Source: Candidatus Woesebacteria bacterium
GTDB taxonomy: Bacteria > Patescibacteriota > Microgenomatia > UBA1406 > HO2-37-13b
NCBI GenBank assembly: GCA_018062135.1
Contig: JAGOSW010000001.1
Location: 3,210-67,209, forward strand
Reading direction: 5' to 3'
Length of the DNA: 64,000 nucleotides
Every line of letters starts with the position of its first letter. Position 1 is the stretch's first letter. Of this stretch, positions 11,860-63,467 are shown one piece after another. The notes under the pieces were generated by a model. The model saw only the letters and a program-made list of their open reading frames with translations. It did no database searches and had not been told where the DNA came from. Made by a program: the position numbers and the translations under genes.

Positions 11860-12023
11860 GCGGTACGCTGTGTATATGCTTTCGTATCCTTTCAGTTACC
11901 TGAAAGCTTTAAAAGCTTATTTAAGGTCGACAGCTTGGTTTCGACCTGAGGGCACCCGCAGATTATTCGCTAACCCCCTCCTCGTATCCCTTCCATCTTG
12001 CGATGAAGTCGGGCCACACGCTT
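11860..12023 (-). ncRNA. glmS ribozyme (GlcN6P-dependent self-cleaving riboswitch) in the glmS 5' leader
   Basis: The minus strand reads AGCGUGUGGCCCGACUUCAUCGCAAGAUGGAAGGGAUACGAGGAGGGGGUUAGCGAAUAAUCUGCGGGUGCCCUCAGGUCGAAACC.... This matches the conserved glmS core as I recall it (A/GCG cleavage-site context, GGAAGGGAUACGAGG, GGUUAGCGAA, GCGGGUGCC). It lies directly upstream of glmS. The ends are approximate. Confidence 0.85.
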
Positions 12024-12111
12024 TAAAAGTTTATTTCACCCAGACGTATTGTCAGGGAACGATTAATGTCTACCGTAGTTGTATTGTAGGACCAAAGGGG
12101 AAGTAAGTCAA

Positions 12112-31907: not shown

Positions 31908-32031
31908 CTTTGCATTCGTCTTAAAACTATCTCATAGTTGTTTTCTAAAGGACTTATGATATAATGTTGATCTAGTTTTTCCACCGGTCCACAGTAGTGG
32001 ACCATCAGCCACCTGAAAGGGGCACCCGACC

Positions 32032-32238
32032 ATGCAGCAGGACGACTTGGATCCGACGACCCGCACCGATGACGAGGACGAGGGCACCGGCACCGGCGCC
32101 GGCGCGAGCGCGGCCGACACCGGTAGCGACCTGGCCACCGATGCCCGCCCGGCCGAGGAGGACACCGTGGTCGACGACCGCGAGATCGGCGGCGAGGGCG
32201 GCGAGGCCCTGAGCGGCATCGAGGGCACCGGCTACTAG
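32032..32238 (+). CDS. small highly acidic protein (68 aa) encoded in a high-GC insert
   Basis: An ATG preceded by GAAAGGGG. Nearly all codons end in G or C (GAC, ACC, GGC, GCC, GAG...), which supports this frame over the three overlapping ORFs in the track. No family recognised. Confidence 0.55.
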   Translation: MQQDDLDPTTRTDDEDEGTGTGAGASAADTGSDLATDARPAEEDTVVDDREIGGEGGEALSGIEGTGY

Positions 32239-32292
32239 GCGCCCGGCGCCAGGTGGAACTATACTGCTCAGCGCAATAGCGCAGAGCAAACT

Positions 32293-32324
32293 AGTCGGGC
32301 GGGGGAACCAACCCCCGCCCGACT
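32293..32324 (+). terminator. GC-rich perfect 13-bp hairpin (AGTCGGGCGGGGG-aaccaa-CCCCCGCCCGACT) at the 3' edge of the high-GC insert
   Basis: Read directly from the sequence. There is no U-tract, as is common for terminators of high-GC bacteria. Confidence 0.5.
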
Positions 32325-32539
32325 GCCATTACTCTTCATTAATCCTCAAATGCTAGAATATAGCTTCCCATACGAGTCGCATGCACTTTCTGTGAGGGCT
32401 TTTTCAAATGCGGGCCGAAGGCCCTCTCTTATCTTTATCTACTGTATTTTAGGTACTTCAAAATCGTATTAAACTGTATTACAAATTTCATACACTGTAT
32501 GACGGTTTTGACTGAACTATAAAGAGTATGCAAAGAGGT

Positions 32540-37869: not shown

Positions 37870-37940
37870 TGGGGGATCGTTCAATGGCAGGACAACAGCC
37901 TTTGGAGCTGTTTATCGGGGTTCGAATCCCTGTCCCCCAG
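37870..37940 (+). tRNA. tRNA-Gln (anticodon UUG), CCA not encoded
   Basis: Manual cloverleaf. Acceptor UGGGGGA/UCCCCCA. U8. D-loop with GG. Anticodon stem ACAGC/GCUGU with loop CU-UUG-GA. T-arm CGGGG-UUCGAAU-CCCUG. Discriminator G. Confidence 0.85.
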
Positions 37941-38031
37941 CAAAATAGGACTCGAACTGGAGCATGACAAAAAGATAGTGTATGCTAGTTTGTGTAGGCC
38001 TGTGGGAAGAAGTTACGTTCTAAGAAGCCAA

Positions 38032-39331: not shown

Positions 39332-39342
39332 GTCCTATACAT

Positions 39343-39369
39343 AGGCGTTCGAATCCCTACTCCCCAGCA
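39343..39369 (+). repeat. degenerate direct copy of the 3' end of tRNA-Gln (att-like remnant)
   Basis: AGGCGTTCGAATCCCTACTCCCCAGCA aligns with tRNA positions 37916-37942, CGGGGTTCGAATCCCTGTCCCCCAGCA. By manual alignment 22 of 27 positions are identical. Confidence 0.6.
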
Positions 39370-49329: not shown

Positions 49330-49668
49330 TTAACTCTCCTTTTTACTTTCTTTCTGAATAGTCTTCCAGTGATATGCATATAAAGGAAGTCCTACGAGAA
49401 GCATAGAAATTGCTCCAGAAAGCTCTCTTTGACGTTGGCGTTGCGATTCTTTATCTTGGCGAGCCTTTTCTTTTGCCTCATCAACTTCTACGGTCTTTCC
49501 ATCAGGTGTTGTCGTGATTGGTCCTGCATAGTATTCATACTTATCTGCGTCTTTAAAGACGAAAACTTTTATGCCGAGATCAACGATACGAACGGTGCCG
49601 ATAACGACAATAAGAAGTCCAATAAAAGAAAAGAGATACAAATAAATAAGACGGATGTTGATTTTCAT
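49330..49668 (-). CDS. hypothetical 2-TM membrane protein
   Basis: A 112-aa ORF with two hydrophobic helices flanking a charged loop. Confidence 0.55.
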   Translation of the reverse strand: MKINIRLIYLYLFSFIGLLIVVIGTVRIVDLGIKVFVFKDADKYEYYAGPITTTPDGKTVEVDEAKEKARQDKESQRQRQRELSGAISMLLVGLPLYAYHWKTIQKESKKES

Positions 49669-49701
49669 AAGGTAAGTATAAAGGATTTTTTAAAAGATGT
49701 G

Positions 49702-49718
49702 AGAAACGGCAATTGATT
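49702..49718. repeat. left arm of perfect 17-bp inverted repeat AGAAACGGCAATTGATT
   Basis: The exact reverse complement occurs at 50832-50848. Together the arms bracket the high-GC cassette. Confidence 0.85.
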
Positions 49719-49934
49719 TTCTGTGTTCCTAACATCAACTTCGGCAGCCAGCCGCTGGTCGTGGCCACAAGTGGCCCCGGGCCGTCGTAGACGGCATTGG
49801 TCGGTATGTTTCCGACCAGCGGCTGGACTGCCTGGGGGTTAGTACCCCGTGAAGGTGATTACCGGCTCACGCCGGCAGCGCCGCAGAGCGGCGCTCAAGG
49901 ATGCCCTCAAAGGGCGTCTAAGTGTATGAGGTTG

Positions 49935-50585
49935 TTAGAGCTGCAGCTGCTGGCGGGTCGCCGGCTGCCACATCATCGCGATCTCGTAGCCCAGCAGGTA
50001 CTGCCGCAGTGCGCGCAGACGGTGGTGGCCGGTGGCCGCCATCGCTGCTCCGCCCATGTTGGCATCGTCACGCCACGCGAGGTGGCCGTCGGTCCACGTC
50101 TCGTTGGTGGCCGCCATGTACTGGCAGCCGGGTGGATTGAAGGTCGTCGCAACGCCGTAGGCCAGGTGCCGGCTGCCGGTATTCGTGCTGTAGTTGGCGA
50201 TCAGTTGCTGCCGCTCATCGTTGCGCCAGACCGTCGTCGCCCAGTTGTGGCCGTTGAAGCCCTTCGCGCTCGCGATGCCGATGCCGGTGTACCCCGCGCT
50301 GGCCATCTGCTGCGCCGTCGTCTGCCCGTTGTCCATGGCGATGGCCTGTTGCGTCTGGCCGTCGTGGCCGTAGCTGCGCAGCAGAACCATCTGGTTCGGG
50401 TTGAGGTTGGAGTCGGTGTTGAGCGCGATCAGCTGGTCAGCAGCACTGCCGACGTTGTTGATCGTCGCCACGTTGTGGTCACCAGAGACAGCGTTCGCCG
50501 CCGCCAGGTTGGCCGGGCGGCTGAACGCACCAAGGAACATGATCGCGATCGCGATCGGAACGGTCCATCGGAGGAAGCGTTGCAA
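49935..50585 (-). CDS. secreted protein of unknown function, encoded in high-GC (Actinobacteria-like) codon usage
   Basis: TTG start at 50585 with GAGGGA 7 nt upstream. Nearly all codons end in G or C. Signal peptide MQRFLRWTVPIAIAIMFLGAFSRPANLAAANA. Chosen over the plus-strand ORFs in the same DNA. Confidence 0.7.
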   Translation of the reverse strand: MQRFLRWTVPIAIAIMFLGAFSRPANLAAANAVSGDHNVATINNVGSAADQLIALNTDSNLNPNQMVLLRSYGHDGQTQQAIAMDNGQTTAQQMASAGYTGIGIASAKGFNGHNWATTVWRNDERQQLIANYSTNTGSRHLAYGVATTFNPPGCQYMAATNETWTDGHLAWRDDANMGGAAMAATGHHRLRALRQYLLGYEIAMMWQPATRQQLQL

Positions 50586-50831
50586 GAGGTATCCCTCACT
50601 TTGTCTTCGCGTAGATGGGTTGGTCTCTCCGTCAGGTGACGGGAGGTGGGGAACTGCGGACGATGCGACTAGGCGATCAGGGCGGTCCCCGGATCATGTA
50701 CTTCTGCCTCCTTTCATGGTGGCAAGCTTGGATGGATAGACACTGACGCCCAAGGTAGCTGGTCAGTAGAGCTCTAAAGACATTTTTATAATATCCCTAA
50801 AATTCTACTAACCAACTTTCAAATTTCTAAT

Positions 50832-50848
50832 AATCAATTGCCGTTTCT
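50832..50848. repeat. right arm of perfect 17-bp inverted repeat (AATCAATTGCCGTTTCT)
   Basis: Exact reverse complement of 49702-49718. Confidence 0.85.
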
Positions 50849-51003
50849 GTCAAAGAACTATGAGTAATAATGCTGGCAGTACACGGCTTTTGCGTACGCC
50901 CTCACTCTTTTCTCAAGGTGTAAAAAAATTTACTATCGGTAGTATAGGCCCGCTTTGGGCACATGTCAATATACCTAATTTTTCCAGCTGTTATACTTTC
51001 TCT

Positions 51004-51207
51004 ATGCCCCAAGATACCAATGAAGCAATTGAACGAGCAAAAGACGGAATAGAAGTTCTTAACGAATACCGAGATCCTACTCCAGCAGTCGCAGCAGATT
51101 CATCTTCATTACTTTCATCACCCCTCTTTCTGTACTCAATCTACGCCCTTTTTTTTATAATAATCTCTATAACCGTCTTATATATTCGCTTTAAAAACAG
51201 CACATGA
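51004..51207 (+). CDS. small membrane protein upstream of dsbB
   Basis: ATG 51004 (MPQDTNEA...) follows a TATACT box. C-terminal TM. Overlaps dsbB by 4 nt. The track ORF starts at 50860. Confidence 0.45.
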   Translation: MPQDTNEAIERAKDGIEVLNEYRDPTPAVAADSSSLLSSPLFLYSIYALFFIIISITVLYIRFKNST

Positions 51208-54631: not shown

Positions 54632-54847
54632 TTATTTCTTTTTCTTTGCTACTGTTTTCTTCTTAGCTACGACTTTCTTTTTAGGCGCTACTTTCTTTAC
54701 TATTTTCTTGACTGCTGCTTTAAGTCCTGTAGCCTTCTTAACCACTGACTTCTTTAATGTTTTCTTTGCTACTGTCTTCTTCTTAGCTACGACCTTCTTC
54801 TTTGCTACTGTTTTTTTAGCTGTTGTCTTTTTCTTTGCTGCTGGCAT
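54632..54847 (-). CDS. Lys/Ala-rich histone H1-like basic protein
   Basis: A 71-aa ORF built from repeated KKKTVAKK / VVAKKK units. AGGAGGGG lies upstream of the ATG. Confidence 0.6.
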   Translation of the reverse strand: MPAAKKKTTAKKTVAKKKVVAKKKTVAKKTLKKSVVKKATGLKAAVKKIVKKVAPKKKVVAKKKTVAKKKK

Positions 54848-62097: not shown

Positions 62098-62640
62098 ATG
62101 CGATATGTATCGTTCATAATAATCATTATTCTAGTGTTCGCTGGGTTAATGTATTACTTTTCATACGGAAGACTCCACAATAAGATCGAACCACGTCTTA
62201 ATATTACCTATCAAAACAGACCAACTTTAAGGTCGGATGTAAACATCATTAATGAACCCACAGGTGAATTGCCTTTAGAAGCCGAATCAGGAGGACAATG
62301 TGCGAATCTACCAAAGAAGCAAGATGTTCATGCACTTTATGTAAAGAGCGTTGCTAAAGATTGCGGCGCCTTGAATGATAATGAAGCTGTTATGGATGAA
62401 GCTGAATCAAAAAATGTTTTGAGATGCCTAGAAAATAGTATTACTGCTGGTCAATGCAGTAATAATAAAGCGTTTTTTACATTGCAGGGTTTTGAAGGAG
62501 CATCAGAAATATTTTTAGAATCGAAAGACTGCCTTTTAAATATAAAGAAATGGTCAACAACATCGCCATCTTGTGGATATTCTGAAGAATCTTGCGAAAA
62601 TATATCAGAAAAGTTTCCGTTCACTCTATGCGATATATAA
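62098..62640 (+). CDS. hypothetical membrane-anchored Cys-containing protein
   Basis: TATAAT at 62086-62091 lies 6 nt before ATG 62098. N-terminal TM. 8 Cys. Confidence 0.5.
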   Translation: MRYVSFIIIIILVFAGLMYYFSYGRLHNKIEPRLNITYQNRPTLRSDVNIINEPTGELPLEAESGGQCANLPKKQDVHALYVKSVAKDCGALNDNEAVMDEAESKNVLRCLENSITAGQCSNNKAFFTLQGFEGASEIFLESKDCLLNIKKWSTTSPSCGYSEESCENISEKFPFTLCDI

Positions 62641-62669
62641 AGATCATCATTGCCCAAATTCTTGGATAC

Positions 62670-63467
62670 ATGGTTTCTGTATTTTTAATCCAGAACGTAT
62701 TTTTGGGTCCCGTTCCAACAGTGCGCGCCGAATTTATTCATGAAGTGCAAGCGTTTCCATCGACGGCGCGCGAATATGTAGTGGCGATGCCTGCAAAATT
62801 AAAGAATATTGTATCGGGCATAAAGGCGAAAAAAGAACGTGCCTCTAAGACGCCGCCGCCTTGGGTTTTTGAACCTTTGCCAGGCGAAGTTATCCCTACG
62901 ACTTCAGGCCGATATACCGGTCCAACGAGAGGTCCGAGAGAACCGAGTCCCTTGCCAACAAATCGCCCAGGCGAACAGGTTCCTCCTTCTCAGCCAGGAC
63001 AACCTCAACCCACAGAACAACCGGAGCGAATTCAGCCAACGCGCGCACCGCAGCCAACGCGGCCGCCGGCGCAGCCTACGTCTGCCCCGGCTAATCCTTC
63101 TGCACTCGAACAAGAAATGTTGACGATAATTAATCAGCGCCGCAAGGCGGCCGGACTACAAGAGATGTCTCTTGATGGTCGTCTAACTGATGCATCTCGT
63201 GGGCATAGTCAATACATGTCTGGCGGCAGAGGGCGATGTGGACATGTTGGCGCGAGCGGTTCGTCTCCTTTTGATCGCGCCAAAACCGCAGGATATAATG
63301 GCCAAGTTATTGGCGAAACAGTTGCGTGCGGCTATACCAGCGCCCAAGCGGCTGTCGATGGATGGTGGTCAAGCCCGCCACATAAAGCTATTCTTATGAG
63401 CCAAAACGGCCGCCAGATCGGATTGGGGTGGTCGAATAATTACCAAACCGCACTCGTTGCGCGATAA
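62670..63467 (+). CDS. CAP/SCP (YkwD-like) domain protein with Pro-rich linker
   Basis: Start moved to ATG 62670. C-terminal domain NQRRKAAGL...HSQYM...GE..A.G......V.GW..S..H...IL. Confidence 0.82.
   Translation: MVSVFLIQNVFLGPVPTVRAEFIHEVQAFPSTAREYVVAMPAKLKNIVSGIKAKKERASKTPPPWVFEPLPGEVIPTTSGRYTGPTRGPREPSPLPTNRPGEQVPPSQPGQPQPTEQPERIQPTRAPQPTRPPAQPTSAPANPSALEQEMLTIINQRRKAAGLQEMSLDGRLTDASRGHSQYMSGGRGRCGHVGASGSSPFDRAKTAGYNGQVIGETVACGYTSAQAAVDGWWSSPPHKAILMSQNGRQIGLGWSNNYQTALVAR

What the first reader, a model, noticed from the sequence alone, without database searches (positions are those of the whole stretch)
49702..50848. High-GC gene cassette for a secreted protein, bracketed by a perfect 17-bp inverted repeat, inserted in an AT-rich divergent intergenic region
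Between about 49735 and about 50745 the DNA switches abruptly from the AT-rich background to strongly G+C-rich sequence. On the minus strand, TTG at 50585 (GAGGGA 7 nt upstream) to TAA at 49935 gives a 216-aa ORF. I read its codons one by one, and almost all end in G or C (CTG, GCG, GGC, AAC, ACC, CAG...). That is real coding sequence in an Actinobacteria-like codon dialect that no other gene in this window except the 68-aa ORF of the 31981-32326 high-GC insert uses.

The product has a Sec signal peptide (MQRFLRWTVPIAIAIMFLGAFSRPANLAAANA|VSG). I cannot assign the mature domain to any family. A loose R...YSTN...YE spacing reminiscent of R-S-E ADP-ribosyltransferases is noted only as something to test.

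The GC-rich block, together with about 85 bp of AT-rich sequence carrying -10-like boxes on its upstream side, is bracketed by AGAAACGGCAATTGATT (49702-49718) and its exact reverse complement (50832-50848). No transposase or integrase lies inside or next to it.

Three explanations fit. One is recent horizontal acquisition from a high-GC donor, which would be attractive if this organism is an epibiont of an actinobacterial host. A second is a non-autonomous TIR-bounded cargo element. The third is an assembly chimera.
Basis: partly seen in the sequence, partly recalled or inferred. Interest (0 to 1): 0.8.

Follow-up and report, generated by a model that had tools for sequence, protein, structure and literature searches.

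The report
Native GC-rich gene with guarded mRNA
A strangely G+C-rich gene for a fast-changing secreted protein sits at the same spot in every sampled relative of this tiny (Woesebacteria/CPR) bacterium and is made as a structured, trimmed, abundant RNA, so it is an old, actively maintained feature and not a recently imported, mobile or mis-assembled cassette.

Summary
There is a ~1 kb block of 62-68% GC in a 40% GC genome, a 216-aa ORF with GC3 0.88 (13 sd above the window's genes), a Sec-type signal peptide, and an exact 17-bp inverted repeat.

The three proposed explanations fail.
- The junctions recur in 13 independent assemblies, so it is not a chimera.
- The block and both 17-mers occupy the same purA-dsbB locus in five Woesebacteria lineages (purA 84-99% identical).
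- No homologue exists outside this locus among about 15 billion proteins, phages or plasmids.
- There is no second copy, target-site duplication, transposase or inversion.

What is there is a conserved transcription unit:
- a minus-strand sigma-70 promoter outside the repeat;
- an AT-rich leader carrying the right arm and a covarying 25-28 bp RNA hairpin;
- a conserved GAAAGGAGG far upstream of the start codon;
- the ORF, a 3'-UTR three-way junction, and the left arm.

Strand-specific RNA-seq contigs show an abundant mature RNA whose ends coincide with the GC block.

The protein is an orphan. Its alleles are mosaic among near-identical strains, and it is only about 30% identical between lineages, yet it stays GC-rich.

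The best reading is a stabilised, processed mRNA for a hypervariable secreted protein, with the arms pairing in the precursor. What maintains the GC content is unexplained.

The parts
50941..50969 (-). Conserved sigma-70-type promoter pointing into the island (TTGACA-17-TATACT). The inferred transcription start is near 50934. It stands back to back with the promoter of the 67-aa/dsbB operon.
   Evidence: Scores 11 of 12. Both hexamers and the 17-nt spacing are kept in all 5 lineages while the spacer sequence is not. The start site is inferred, not mapped.
50857..50919 (-). First leader stem-loop domain of the precursor RNA.
   Evidence: The same fold is predicted in WIN, L255, L257, L264 and L265. 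This is prediction only.
50832..50848 (-). Right arm of the 17-nt inverted repeat. It lies at about +86 to +102 of the inferred precursor.
   Evidence: Exact in the window. It is 100% conserved in L001-L004, L255-L258, L256, L264 and L265. It pairs with the left arm in the minimum-energy fold of the whole precursor in all 5 lineages.
50757..50817 (-). Long leader hairpin of 25-28 bp that ends at the mature 5' end. It is a double-stranded RNA substrate of the RNase III type.
   Evidence: Of 25 pairs, 10 show compensatory double changes and 95% of cells are paired, against 38-48% in slid controls. Covariation is 0.547 against 0.281 in shuffles, with 0 of 500 shuffles reaching it. Seven to nine G.U pairs per stem in the window-type alleles would be A.C mismatches on the plus strand, so this is an RNA structure on the minus strand.
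49730..50761 (-). Mature, abundant transcript, which coincides with the GC-rich block. 5' ends are at 50761, 50759 and 50754. 3' ends are at about 49734-49717.
   Evidence: Ten roughly 1 kb ENA contigs (k-mer coverage 32-131) consist of this block only. Six carry the Illumina Read-2 adapter (a seventh carries only its last 4 bases) fused to the sense 5' end, and one carries the Read-1 adapter complement on the 3' side. That is a strand-specific RNA-seq signature.
50707..50715 (-). GAAAGGAGG, a perfect anti-16S Shine-Dalgarno-like motif 128 nt upstream of the start codon. It is a candidate 5' mRNA stabiliser.
   Evidence: Present in the 5' UTR of all 5 lineages, 30-53 nt from the mature 5' end and 119-172 nt from the start codon. 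The precedent is cry3A STAB-SD (PMC4113751).
50677..50697 (-). Mini-ORF MIRGPP* that starts 9 nt after the SD-like motif.
   Evidence: MIRGPP* in the window, MKLIRGPP* in L255 and MARGPP* in L256, with synonymous differences. It is absent in L264 and L265.
49935..50585 (-). 216-aa ORF (KBD09_00300, MBP9815665.1). It has a Sec-type signal peptide (residues 1-32) and an orphan mature domain.
   Evidence: GC3 is 0.88. The same frame, signal peptide and GC3 of 0.80-0.88 hold in all lineages.
50148..50330 (-). Hypervariable central segment of the ORF. Alleles are mosaic.
   Evidence: 35-58% identity between allele groups whose flanks are 97-100% identical. Different segments pair up different alleles.
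49743..49832 (-). 3'-UTR three-way junction closed by a 15-19 bp stem. The whole 3' UTR runs from 49730 to 49934.
   Evidence: The 3' UTR folds with z = -8.3. The architecture is kept in WIN, L256 and L264 while the inner hairpins change sequence.
49702..49718 (-). Left arm of the 17-nt inverted repeat, just past the 3' structure.
   Evidence: Exact in the window. It is conserved in all lineages. In L265 the core 14 nt are kept and the inner 3 nt are changed.
51004..51207 (+). Conserved 67-aa membrane-anchored protein gene, first gene of the divergent dsbB operon. This is context, not part of the unit.
49330..49668 (-). DUF5671 gene between purA and the left arm. It is present in the window-type and L256 lineages and absent in L264 and L265.

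Best explanation
This is a native, clade-wide transcription unit of one genus-level group of Woesebacteria. It is not an inserted cassette.

Proposed mechanism:
1. A conserved minus-strand promoter (50969-50941), which lies outside the inverted repeat, makes a precursor of about 1.23 kb.
2. The precursor's AT-rich leader carries the right arm and a 25-28 bp hairpin. Its 3' end carries the left arm.
3. The two arms can close the whole message in a 17-bp helix, as the flanks of rRNA precursors do.
4. Endonucleolytic cutting (an RNase III-type enzyme is the obvious candidate) and exonucleolytic nibbling remove the AU-rich leader and trailer.
5. This leaves a mature mRNA of about 1.03 kb that is exactly the GC-rich block.
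6. The mature mRNA is guarded at the 5' side by GC-rich structure and a conserved GAAAGGAGG 30S-binding site, followed in 3 of 5 lineages by a short RGPP-stop mini-ORF. It is guarded at the 3' side by a three-way-junction structure.
7. The message accumulates to a high level and encodes a Sec-secreted orphan protein of about 19 kDa. That protein diversifies very fast and is reshuffled between strains by homologous recombination.

The high GC content is kept by an active force and is not a leftover of a recent transfer. My preferred candidate is selection for a nuclease-resistant, stable message. GC-biased gene conversion at a recombination hotspot is the main alternative.

Shown:
- composition and coding signature;
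- conservation of locus, promoter and arms;
- hairpin covariation;
- ends and abundance of the mature RNA;
- mosaic alleles;
- absence of donors.

Inferred:
- the transcription start;
- arm pairing in vivo;
- the nucleases involved;
- the stabiliser function;
- secretion;
- the reason for the GC content.
For: Locus and origin:
- The same locus holds a GC island in 13 assemblies from 5 lineages.
- Island proteins are 30-34% identical between lineages whose purA is 84-88% identical, yet GC3 stays at 0.80-0.88.
- There are no homologues elsewhere.

Transcript architecture:
- Promoter hexamers and spacing are conserved while the spacer sequence is free.
- The leader hairpin covaries and is rich in G.U pairs, which places it on the minus-strand RNA.
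- The arms pair in the full-length minimum-energy fold in 5 of 5 lineages.
- RNA-seq contigs equal the GC block, have nibbled 5' ends (50761, 50759, 50754), and show coverage of 32-131.
- GAAAGGAGG is conserved in 5 of 5 lineages, and the cry3A precedent applies.
- The 3' UTR folds with z = -8.3 and its architecture is conserved.
- The leader inside the arms is only 34% GC, so GC-richness tracks the mature RNA and not the arm-bounded DNA.

Evolution of the island:
- Alleles are mosaic.
- Singleton changes inside the island run 25 strong-to-weak against 24 weak-to-strong. About 4:1 would be expected if the island were decaying toward the genome's GC3. The polarisation is crude.
Against: - The arms never vary in sequence (0 changes in the 14 core positions of either arm in 5 lineages), while 18 of the 25 pairs of the neighbouring hairpin vary. 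Pairing alone does not demand this, so a sequence-specific protein at DNA or RNA level is implied.
- In L265 a strong hairpin with a U-tract lies just inside the left arm. The transcript may end before the arm there.
- The mature RNA contains neither arm, so arm pairing is unobserved.
- The CDS is no more structured than synonymous-codon shuffles (z = -0.3). Any RNA-level selection would therefore be for GC content as such.
- The type of the ENA libraries is inferred from adapter orientation, not from metadata.
Confidence: 0.5

Rival explanations
1. The unit is the same native locus, but the two 17-mers act on DNA. They would be paired binding sites for a sequence-specific protein. One option is a repressor or looping protein that insulates or silences the unit. 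Another is a recombinase that exchanges or inverts the segment between them. RNA pairing would then be incidental.
For: The arm sequence is invariant while the adjacent RNA hairpin covaries freely. In L265 the left arm lies past a terminator-like hairpin. Island segments are 98-100% identical between lineages whose flanks are 83-93% identical, which shows exchange of island DNA across lineages.
Against: No regulator or recombinase gene is linked in any lineage. All 13 assemblies that have both flanks show one orientation. Recombination breakpoints lie inside the island, not at the arms. The motif has no other copy in 64 kb or in the 10-kb contexts of relatives.
Confidence: 0.28
2. The GC content is a by-product of GC-biased gene conversion at a recombination hotspot, and not of selection on the RNA. 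The locus would be native and hypervariable, and its composition a neutral consequence of very frequent allelic exchange.
For: There are mosaic alleles, and identical tracts are shared across diverged lineages. The numbers of weak-to-strong and strong-to-weak changes are balanced. The CDS shows no structure beyond what its composition gives.
Against: The GC boundaries coincide with the mature RNA ends. The AT-rich leader lies inside the same recombining unit. The second GC island at 31981-32326 is nearly invariant between strains (2 of 68 residues differ), so high GC occurs there without visible hypervariability. The size of the effect (GC3 0.88 against 0.32) far exceeds what I know of reported bacterial biased gene conversion.
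Confidence: 0.2
3. An ancient horizontal acquisition from a high-GC organism or its phage is repeatedly refreshed by import from an unsampled GC-rich pool, such as a host.
For: The composition, Arg-for-Lys usage and TTG start look actinobacterial. A second GC-rich gene lies in the window. Tracts are shared across lineages.
Against: There is no homologue outside this locus. That holds for 5.8 billion clustered proteins, a full HMMER profile search of 1.84 billion representatives, phages, plasmids and viral contigs. The covarying AT-rich hairpin, the GCTACCTT motif and the arms are lineage-specific native sequence contiguous with the GC block. One caveat applies: gene callers often call the antisense ORF in these islands, so protein databases under-sample the family.
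Confidence: 0.1
4. A non-autonomous cargo element bounded by terminal inverted repeats and mobilised in trans.
For: A perfect 17-bp inverted repeat brackets the block. The DUF5671 gene is present or absent next to it.
Against: It is one fixed locus in five lineages. There is no target-site duplication (GATGTG against GTCAAA outside the arms). There is no second copy or solo arm. No transposase is present. The conserved promoter is outside the repeat. The single viral-contig match to the 18-mer is a chance hit.
Confidence: 0.03
5. An assembly chimera, or a recent strain-specific transfer.
For: Only the abrupt composition change.
Against: Identical junctions and an identical allele recur in independent assemblies (L259, L261). 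Thirteen assemblies contain both junctions. The island is present in all lineages.
Confidence: 0.01

Closest known systems
cry3A (cryIIIA) mRNA of Bacillus thuringiensis: STAB-SD 5' stabiliser plus 3' stem-loop 'retroregulator'
   Same: A long primary transcript is trimmed 5' to 3' to a shorter, very stable major species. A Shine-Dalgarno-like sequence sits far upstream of the start codon (about -125 in cry3A; -119 to -172 here). A strong 3' structure is present. The product is exported and very abundant (PMC4113751). The literal STAB-SD sequence GAAAGGAGG is from my memory of Agaisse and Lereclus 1996.
   Different: In cry3A the mature end lies a few nucleotides from the STAB-SD, whereas here it is 30-53 nt away. 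cry3A has no flanking inverted repeat, no long leader hairpin and no compositional island. Function here is untested, and the presence of RNase J in this organism was not checked.
rRNA precursor processing stems (inverted repeats flanking 16S/23S, cut by RNase III)
   Same: Conserved complementary sequences flank a GC-enriched, highly structured, abundant RNA in an AT-rich genome and are absent from the mature species.
   Different: The enclosed RNA is a messenger. The helix is only 17 bp. Cleavage has not been shown. rRNA stems covary, whereas these arms are invariant.
Borrelia vlsE and other contingency or antigenic-variation loci
   Same: A hypervariable secreted or surface protein gene has a GC content far above the genome's, and this compositional anomaly is conserved across species even though the sequence is not (own knowledge). 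Segments are mosaic.
   Different: There are no silent cassettes or partial copies in 64 kb and none in protein databases. Variation is seen between strains, not shown within a clone. The flanking repeats here are inverted, not direct.
Hin/Gin-type invertible segments and other invertons
   Same: A segment of about 1 kb is bracketed by short perfect inverted repeats.
   Different: There is no recombinase inside or nearby. Only one orientation appears in 13 assemblies. The ORF has no resolvase or integrase domain.
hok-type mRNAs with 5'-3' fold-back pairing
   Same: Long-range pairing of the two transcript ends gives an inert, stable precursor that is activated by end processing (own knowledge).
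   Different: The size (1.2 kb against 0.4 kb), the product (a secreted protein, not a membrane toxin) and the absence of an antisense RNA all differ. This is purely an analogy.

Membership tests
Recently acquired genomic island (HGT) | Compositional deviation from the host genome | tested here: met
   62-68% GC against 40%. GC3 is 0.88 against 0.32 +/- 0.04.
Recently acquired genomic island (HGT) | Patchy presence among close relatives (empty sites) | tested here: not met
   The island is present at the orthologous site in all 5 lineages sampled, with purA 84-99% identical. The next relative (purA 63%) has no synteny.
Recently acquired genomic island (HGT) | Identifiable donor-lineage homologues | tested here: not met
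   Only the family's own members were found. Phages, plasmids and viral contigs were negative.
TIR-bounded transposable element (MITE-like cargo) | Terminal inverted repeats | tested here: met
   Exact 17-bp inverted repeat.
TIR-bounded transposable element (MITE-like cargo) | Target-site duplication | tested here: not met
   The bases outside the arms are GATGTG on the left and GTCAAA on the right.
TIR-bounded transposable element (MITE-like cargo) | Multiple copies or different insertion sites | tested here: not met
   There are two arm matches only in 64 kb and in each 10-kb relative locus. No island copy lies elsewhere in the window. The whole genome was not available.
Invertible DNA segment (inverton) | Both orientations observed, with a linked recombinase | tested here: not met
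   One orientation in 13 assemblies. No recombinase domain within about 5 kb.
Diversity-generating retroelement target | Template repeat and reverse transcriptase nearby | tested here: not met
   No repeat of the variable region in 64 kb. Variation consists of indels and unalignable blocks, not adenine-specific changes. No reverse-transcriptase domain within about 5 kb (Pfam columns).
Silent-cassette antigenic variation (vls/pilS type) | Partial donor copies of the variable region | tested here: inconclusive
   None in the window or among database ORFs. The rest of the genome was not searched.
STAB-SD-type stabilised mRNA | SD-like sequence in the 5' UTR that does not serve the main start codon | tested here: met
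   GAAAGGAGG lies 119-172 nt upstream of the start in 5 of 5 lineages.
STAB-SD-type stabilised mRNA | Processed 5' end and raised half-life that depend on the motif | tested here: inconclusive
   Nibbled 5' ends and high RNA coverage are seen. Dependence on the motif cannot be tested with these tools.
RNase III-processed precursor with flanking stem | Complementary flanks absent from the mature RNA | tested here: met
   The arms pair in the minimum-energy fold. Mature contigs lack both arms.
RNase III-processed precursor with flanking stem | Cleavage within the duplex with 2-nt staggered ends | not testable with these tools
   Needs end mapping of intermediates or an in vitro assay.
CAP/SCP (PF00188) secreted proteins | Significant match to the family profile | tested here: not met
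   E = 0.54 and 0.24 in 2 of 10 members, below the cut-off. The match does not cover the motif-like stretches.
R-S-E ADP-ribosyltransferases | Profile or structure match | tested here: not met
   No Pfam or PDB hit. The AlphaFold model is unusable (pLDDT 31).
Known RNA families (Rfam 15) | Covariance-model match | tested here: not met
   Nothing at gathering score or with a credible E-value in the window locus or in L256, L264 and L265.

The most novel reading that the evidence does not exclude
This Woesebacteria clade keeps a small class of genes, at least two in this 64 kb, as compositionally distinct GC-rich messages. Their GC content is actively maintained because the mature RNA has to survive. 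Survival could be needed inside an RNase-rich or dormant cell, or outside the cell on the way to a partner organism. The invariant 17-nt arms would be the recognition sites of a dedicated, still unknown processing, packaging or recombination protein. That would be a new way of setting gene expression by local base composition, and a new flanking-site system.
Probability: 0.2. Interest if true: 0.85.

Novelty: new variant of a known kind. Interest (0 to 1): 0.62.

Why it matters
- Composition-based detection of horizontal transfer would flag this gene with full confidence, and it would be wrong. The block is old, fixed in position and actively kept GC-rich while its protein changes faster than almost anything around it.
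- It gives a concrete, testable case of a protein-coding gene whose base composition is uncoupled from its genome.
- It also offers a first look at mRNA processing and stabilisation signals in CPR bacteria: a long leader hairpin, flanking complementary arms, an SD-like 5' element and a 3' junction. Nothing is known experimentally about these in this group.
- The product is an abundant, secreted, hypervariable orphan protein. That makes it a natural candidate for the interface between these presumed episymbionts and their partners or phages.
- Most gene callers annotate the wrong strand in these islands, so the family is nearly invisible in protein databases.

Tried and rejected
1. Empty-site search. 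I guessed that the arms might be halves of an ancestral palindrome, and scanned genome contigs and metagenome contigs with AGAAACGGCAAN{0,30}TTGCCGTTTCT. No exact-match hunt for the 3' UTR in metagenomes and no purA-anchored scan of GTDB genomes could then be run.
2. Function by homology. Pfam, PDB (single sequence and profile) and a full HMMER profile search found nothing significant. The best PDB hit was the fragilysin pro-domain at E about 0.06.
3. CAP-like motifs that I thought I saw (GHNWATTVW, FNPPG) are not supported by the profile alignment.
4. AlphaFold on the 10-sequence alignment gave pLDDT 31 and no usable model, so no fold search was made.
5. An Obelisk-like or small-replicon reading of the roughly 1 kb contigs was rejected. 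They have no terminal overlaps, and L008 carries chromosomal flank bases at both ends.
6. Known RNA families: none.
7. Phage, plasmid or viral origin: no protein or DNA match. The single viral 18-mer hit is chance.
8. Specific structure in the CDS: none beyond what composition gives.
9. Pairing of the mature 5' and 3' ends: not consistent between lineages.
10. Literature searches for GC-rich islands in CPR/Patescibacteria returned nothing relevant.
Full report

Yes.
- GC jumps from about 0.35-0.42 to 0.61-0.69 between about 49735 and about 50750. Only one other block in the window is comparable, at 31951-32375.
- The minus-strand ORF at 49935..50585 (TTG start, 216 aa) has GC by codon position of 0.60/0.48/0.88.
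- The other 61 long ORFs of the window have GC3 0.323 +/- 0.042 (maximum 0.43), so this ORF lies 13 sd out. Its Lys:Arg ratio is 1:12 against 1.67:1.
- The 17-mer AGAAACGGCAATTGATT (49702-49718) and its exact complement (50832-50848) are the only matches in the window, even with three mismatches allowed.
- The window is from a Candidatus Woesebacteria MAG, and the ORF is KBD09_00300 / MBP9815665.1.

**2.

*Chimera.* Rejected.
- The block with both AT-rich junctions recurs in independent NCBI, JGI, ENA and Logan assemblies: L001-L004, L255-L261, L264 and L265.
- The window's own allele is found with an identical protein in L259 and L261.

*Recent transfer.* Rejected.
- All these loci are the same place in the genome, between purA (with or without a DUF5671 gene) and a 67-aa/dsbB/NUDIX cluster.
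- purA identities define a tight clade (99, 88, 86 and 84%), followed by a gap to 64%.
- Every one of the five lineages carries a 0.75-1.05 kb island of 62-74% GC there.
- In L256 (flanks about 75% identical to the window), L264 and L265 the island DNA cannot be aligned to the window's. Each still holds, on the same strand, an ORF with a signal peptide and GC3 of 0.80-0.88. These proteins are 30-34% identical to the window's and share short motifs such as GH-x-AWRD and SGG(F/L)GHRL.
- No other homologue exists. The word-indexed search of 5.8 billion clusters found 10 proteins, all from this locus. A full HMMER profile search of 1.84 billion representatives found only two, both from the family itself. 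tblastn and blastn against phages and plasmids found nothing, and a viral-contig scan found nothing.
- One caveat applies. In most assemblies the gene caller annotated an antisense ORF inside the island, so the family is under-represented in protein databases.

*Mobile TIR element.* Rejected.
- It is one fixed locus, with no second copy of the arms or the island.
- There is no target-site duplication.
- There is no transposase, integrase or reverse transcriptase within about 5 kb in any lineage.
- All 13 assemblies that have both flanks show the same orientation.

**3. What the unit looks like**

Aligning the right flank across the five lineages corrects the annotation. The conserved gene is 67 aa and starts at 51004. 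The first 48 codons of the '115-aa ORF' are not coding.

That stretch holds a minus-strand promoter, TTGACA-17-TATACT at 50969-50941 (11 of 12 matches). Its hexamers and 17-nt spacing are kept in all lineages while the spacer sequence drifts. In L256 the -10 box is TATAAT. It points into the island and lies outside the inverted repeat.

Downstream of the promoter come, in order:
- A predicted leader stem-loop.
- The right arm.
- A long hairpin at 50817-50757. This is the 'AT-rich 85 bp with -10-like boxes'.
  - It is a 25-28 bp stem in every lineage.
  - 10 of 25 pairs show compensatory double changes.
  - 95% of cells are paired, against 38-48% when the partner is slid.
  - The covariation score is 0.547 against 0.281 +/- 0.035 in shuffles, with 0 of 500 shuffles reaching it.
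  - It contains 7-9 G.U pairs in the window-type alleles. These would be A.C mismatches on the other strand, so it is an RNA structure on the minus strand. Transcription must therefore start upstream of it.
- A 5' UTR that contains GAAAGGAGG (50715-50707) in all five lineages. The motif lies 119-172 nt before the start codon.
- In three lineages, 8-9 nt after that motif, a mini-ORF: MIRGPP*, MKLIRGPP* or MARGPP*. Synonymous differences between the window and L256 suggest it is translated.
- The main ORF, which has its own SD and a TTG or ATG start.
- The 3' UTR, which folds far better than shuffles (z = -8.3). It forms a three-way junction closed by a 15-19 bp stem. That architecture is kept in the window group, L256 and L264 while the inner hairpins change sequence.
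- The left arm.

Rfam has no family for any of this.

**4. The RNA**

Ten ENA contigs of 1004-1099 bp (k-mer coverage 32-131) carry allele P0008 and consist of the GC block only.
- In six of them the Illumina Read-2 adapter is fused directly to the sense 5' end; a seventh (L014) shows only its last 4 bases. The junction is at 50761 (four contigs, plus one with an extra G), at 50759 or at 50754.
- L014 also has the complement of the Read-1 adapter on the 3' side.
- All junctions have the orientation expected of a dUTP-stranded RNA-seq library. This is my knowledge of the adapters, and the sample metadata could not be checked. An unstranded DNA library would give both orientations and no fixed ends.
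- 3' ends fall at 49734-49717. Two contigs carry short non-templated purine-rich tails.
- L008 keeps 5 and 12 bases of chromosomal flank, so the RNA comes from this locus.

So the mature, abundant RNA is the GC-rich block. The leader (34% GC), the hairpin and both arms are removed or lost. The scatter of 5' ends looks like exonucleolytic nibbling up to stable structure, not a single start site.

**5. The arms**

Both 17-mers are identical in the window group, L256 and L264. In L265 the right arm is identical, and the left arm keeps its outer 14 nt.
- At about 75% flank identity, keeping all 34 positions by chance has a probability of about 6e-5 (my arithmetic).
- In a minimum-energy fold of the whole inferred precursor, the right arm pairs with the left arm in all five lineages. 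This is the geometry of an rRNA-type processing stem.
- Two facts argue for caution:
  - The arms do not covary at all, while 18 of the 25 pairs of the hairpin next to them vary. Their sequence, not only their complementarity, is therefore constrained.
  - In L265 a strong hairpin with a U-tract, which also serves purA from the other side, sits just inside the left arm. The message may end before the arm there.

I therefore hold RNA pairing as the leading idea for the arms (about 0.4 for that sub-claim alone) and a DNA-level protein site as a serious rival.

**6. Evolution of the gene**

Within the window-type group the alleles are mosaics.
- The 3' UTR and the first 50 or so mature codons are 96-100% identical in all alleles. 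This includes L001 and L255, whose flanks are only 83-93% identical to the window.
- The central segment (50330-50148) is 35-58% identical between allele groups, even where flanks are 97-100% identical.
- The 5' UTR/signal peptide and the C-terminus each group the alleles differently. This incongruence means recombination.
- Tracts of 350 nt at 98-100% identity lie inside 86% flanks and include synonymous sites. That means recent exchange between lineages, not constraint alone.
- One allele (L003, L258, L260) carries a frameshift in three independent assemblies.
- No partial copies that could act as silent cassettes, and no template repeat, occur in the window.

**7. Why is it GC-rich?**

This is not settled. 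A relic of transfer cannot be the whole answer. The proteins have diverged to about 30% identity, yet GC3 has not moved toward the genome's 0.32.
- A crude count of singleton differences in well-aligned island columns gives 25 strong-to-weak against 24 weak-to-strong. About 4:1 would be expected if the island were drifting toward the genome's composition (with my arithmetic).
- The GC boundaries follow the mature RNA, not the arm-bounded DNA. This favours selection acting on the message.
- Predicted folding energy is -0.44 kcal/mol per nt, against -0.21 to -0.29 for three ordinary genes.
- The CDS is not more structured than synonymous-codon shuffles (z = -0.3). Selection would therefore be for GC content or stability as such.
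- GC-biased gene conversion at a recombination hotspot is the main alternative.
- The second island (31981-32326) encodes a 68-aa acidic protein with GC3 0.94. It starts right after a TATAAT box, has a 5'-terminal hairpin and ends in a strong terminator. It is almost invariant between two strains. High GC without hypervariability fits RNA-level selection better than conversion.

**8. Comparison with known systems**

- The closest working analogy is the cry3A message of Bacillus thuringiensis. There a long primary transcript is trimmed 5' to 3' by RNase J1 until a 30S subunit bound to an SD-like 'STAB-SD' blocks it, and a 3' stem-loop protects the other end (PMC4113751).
- The flanking complementary arms recall rRNA precursor stems.
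- A hypervariable gene far above genomic GC recalls Borrelia vlsE (own knowledge).

None of these is a family this locus can be filed under. The membership table lists which defining features were met and which were not. The protein itself remains an orphan, and the AlphaFold model is unusable (pLDDT 31).

**9. Verdict**

- The thing is a conserved, lineage-specific, processed and stabilised GC-rich message for a hypervariable secreted protein, bracketed by two invariant complementary 17-mers of unknown mechanism.
- Confidence that it is native and neither recent, mobile nor chimeric is about 0.9.
- Confidence in the processed stable-mRNA reading is about 0.75.
- Confidence in the whole model, including arm pairing, is about 0.5.

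Noticed in passing
window 31981-32326 (+): A second GC-rich block (63% GC) with a 68-aa acidic ORF (32032-32238, KBD09_00200, GC3 0.94). It starts just after a TATAAT box at about 31961, has a 5'-terminal hairpin and ends in a 13-bp GC terminator at 32293-32324. It has no flanking arms. A related strain differs at 2 of 68 residues (P0135).
   Followed up: partly
window 50677-50697 (-); L255, L256: Mini-ORF MIRGPP* (MKLIRGPP* in L255, MARGPP* in L256) lies 8-9 nt after the conserved GAAAGGAGG. Synonymous differences preserve R-G-P-P-stop. It is absent in L264 and L265. It may be a ribosome-stalling peptide that acts as a 5' stabiliser.
   Followed up: partly
window 50860-51207 (+): The 115-aa ORF is over-called. 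The conserved gene is 67 aa from 51004, with TATACT-N6-ATG (a leaderless-type arrangement). The DUF5671 gene has the same arrangement (TATACT 49680-49675, ATG 49668).
   Followed up: partly
L264 6290-6300; L265 6290-6300 versus window 49330-49700: The DUF5671 gene is absent in two lineages. There the left arm starts 6 bp after the purA stop codon. So there is a gene-sized indel just outside the arm.
   Followed up: partly
L003, L258, L260 (island ORF, about 60 codons before the stop): One allele has a frameshift that recurs in three independent assemblies. In that strain the gene may be a pseudogene or have an altered C-terminus.
   Followed up: no
L255, L256, L257, L259, L261, L264 (island): Automatic gene callers annotate antisense ORFs inside the GC island in most assemblies. 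This hides the family from protein databases.
   Followed up: yes
L005 and L007, 3' ends: RNA-derived contigs end in non-templated purine-rich tails (AAAGGGACAAAAGGG and GAAGAGAGAG). These resemble heteropolymeric tails added by PNPase.
   Followed up: no
window 37870-37941 and 39341-39369: The last 29 nt of tRNA-Gln are repeated at 83% identity 1.4 kb downstream. This may be an att-type repeat left by a small integrated element.
   Followed up: no
window 11864-12033 (-): A glmS ribozyme scores 70.5 bits, well above the gathering score.
   Followed up: no
window 62592-63467 (+): A moderately GC-enriched gene (51-57% GC) with a Pro-rich linker and a C-terminal half that reads to me like a CAP/SCP-type domain (not scanned against Pfam). 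Its GC3 is only 0.43, so it does not belong to the same phenomenon.
   Followed up: partly
window 54640-54847: A run of imperfect 70-nt direct repeats (T/C-rich on the plus strand), probably a low-complexity Lys-rich coding repeat on the minus strand.
   Followed up: no
window 49743-49832 (-): In the 3' junction the hairpin GGUCGG...CCGACC competes with the closing stem for the same GGUCG bases. Both alternatives are conserved in L256 and L264, so this may be a structural switch.
   Followed up: no
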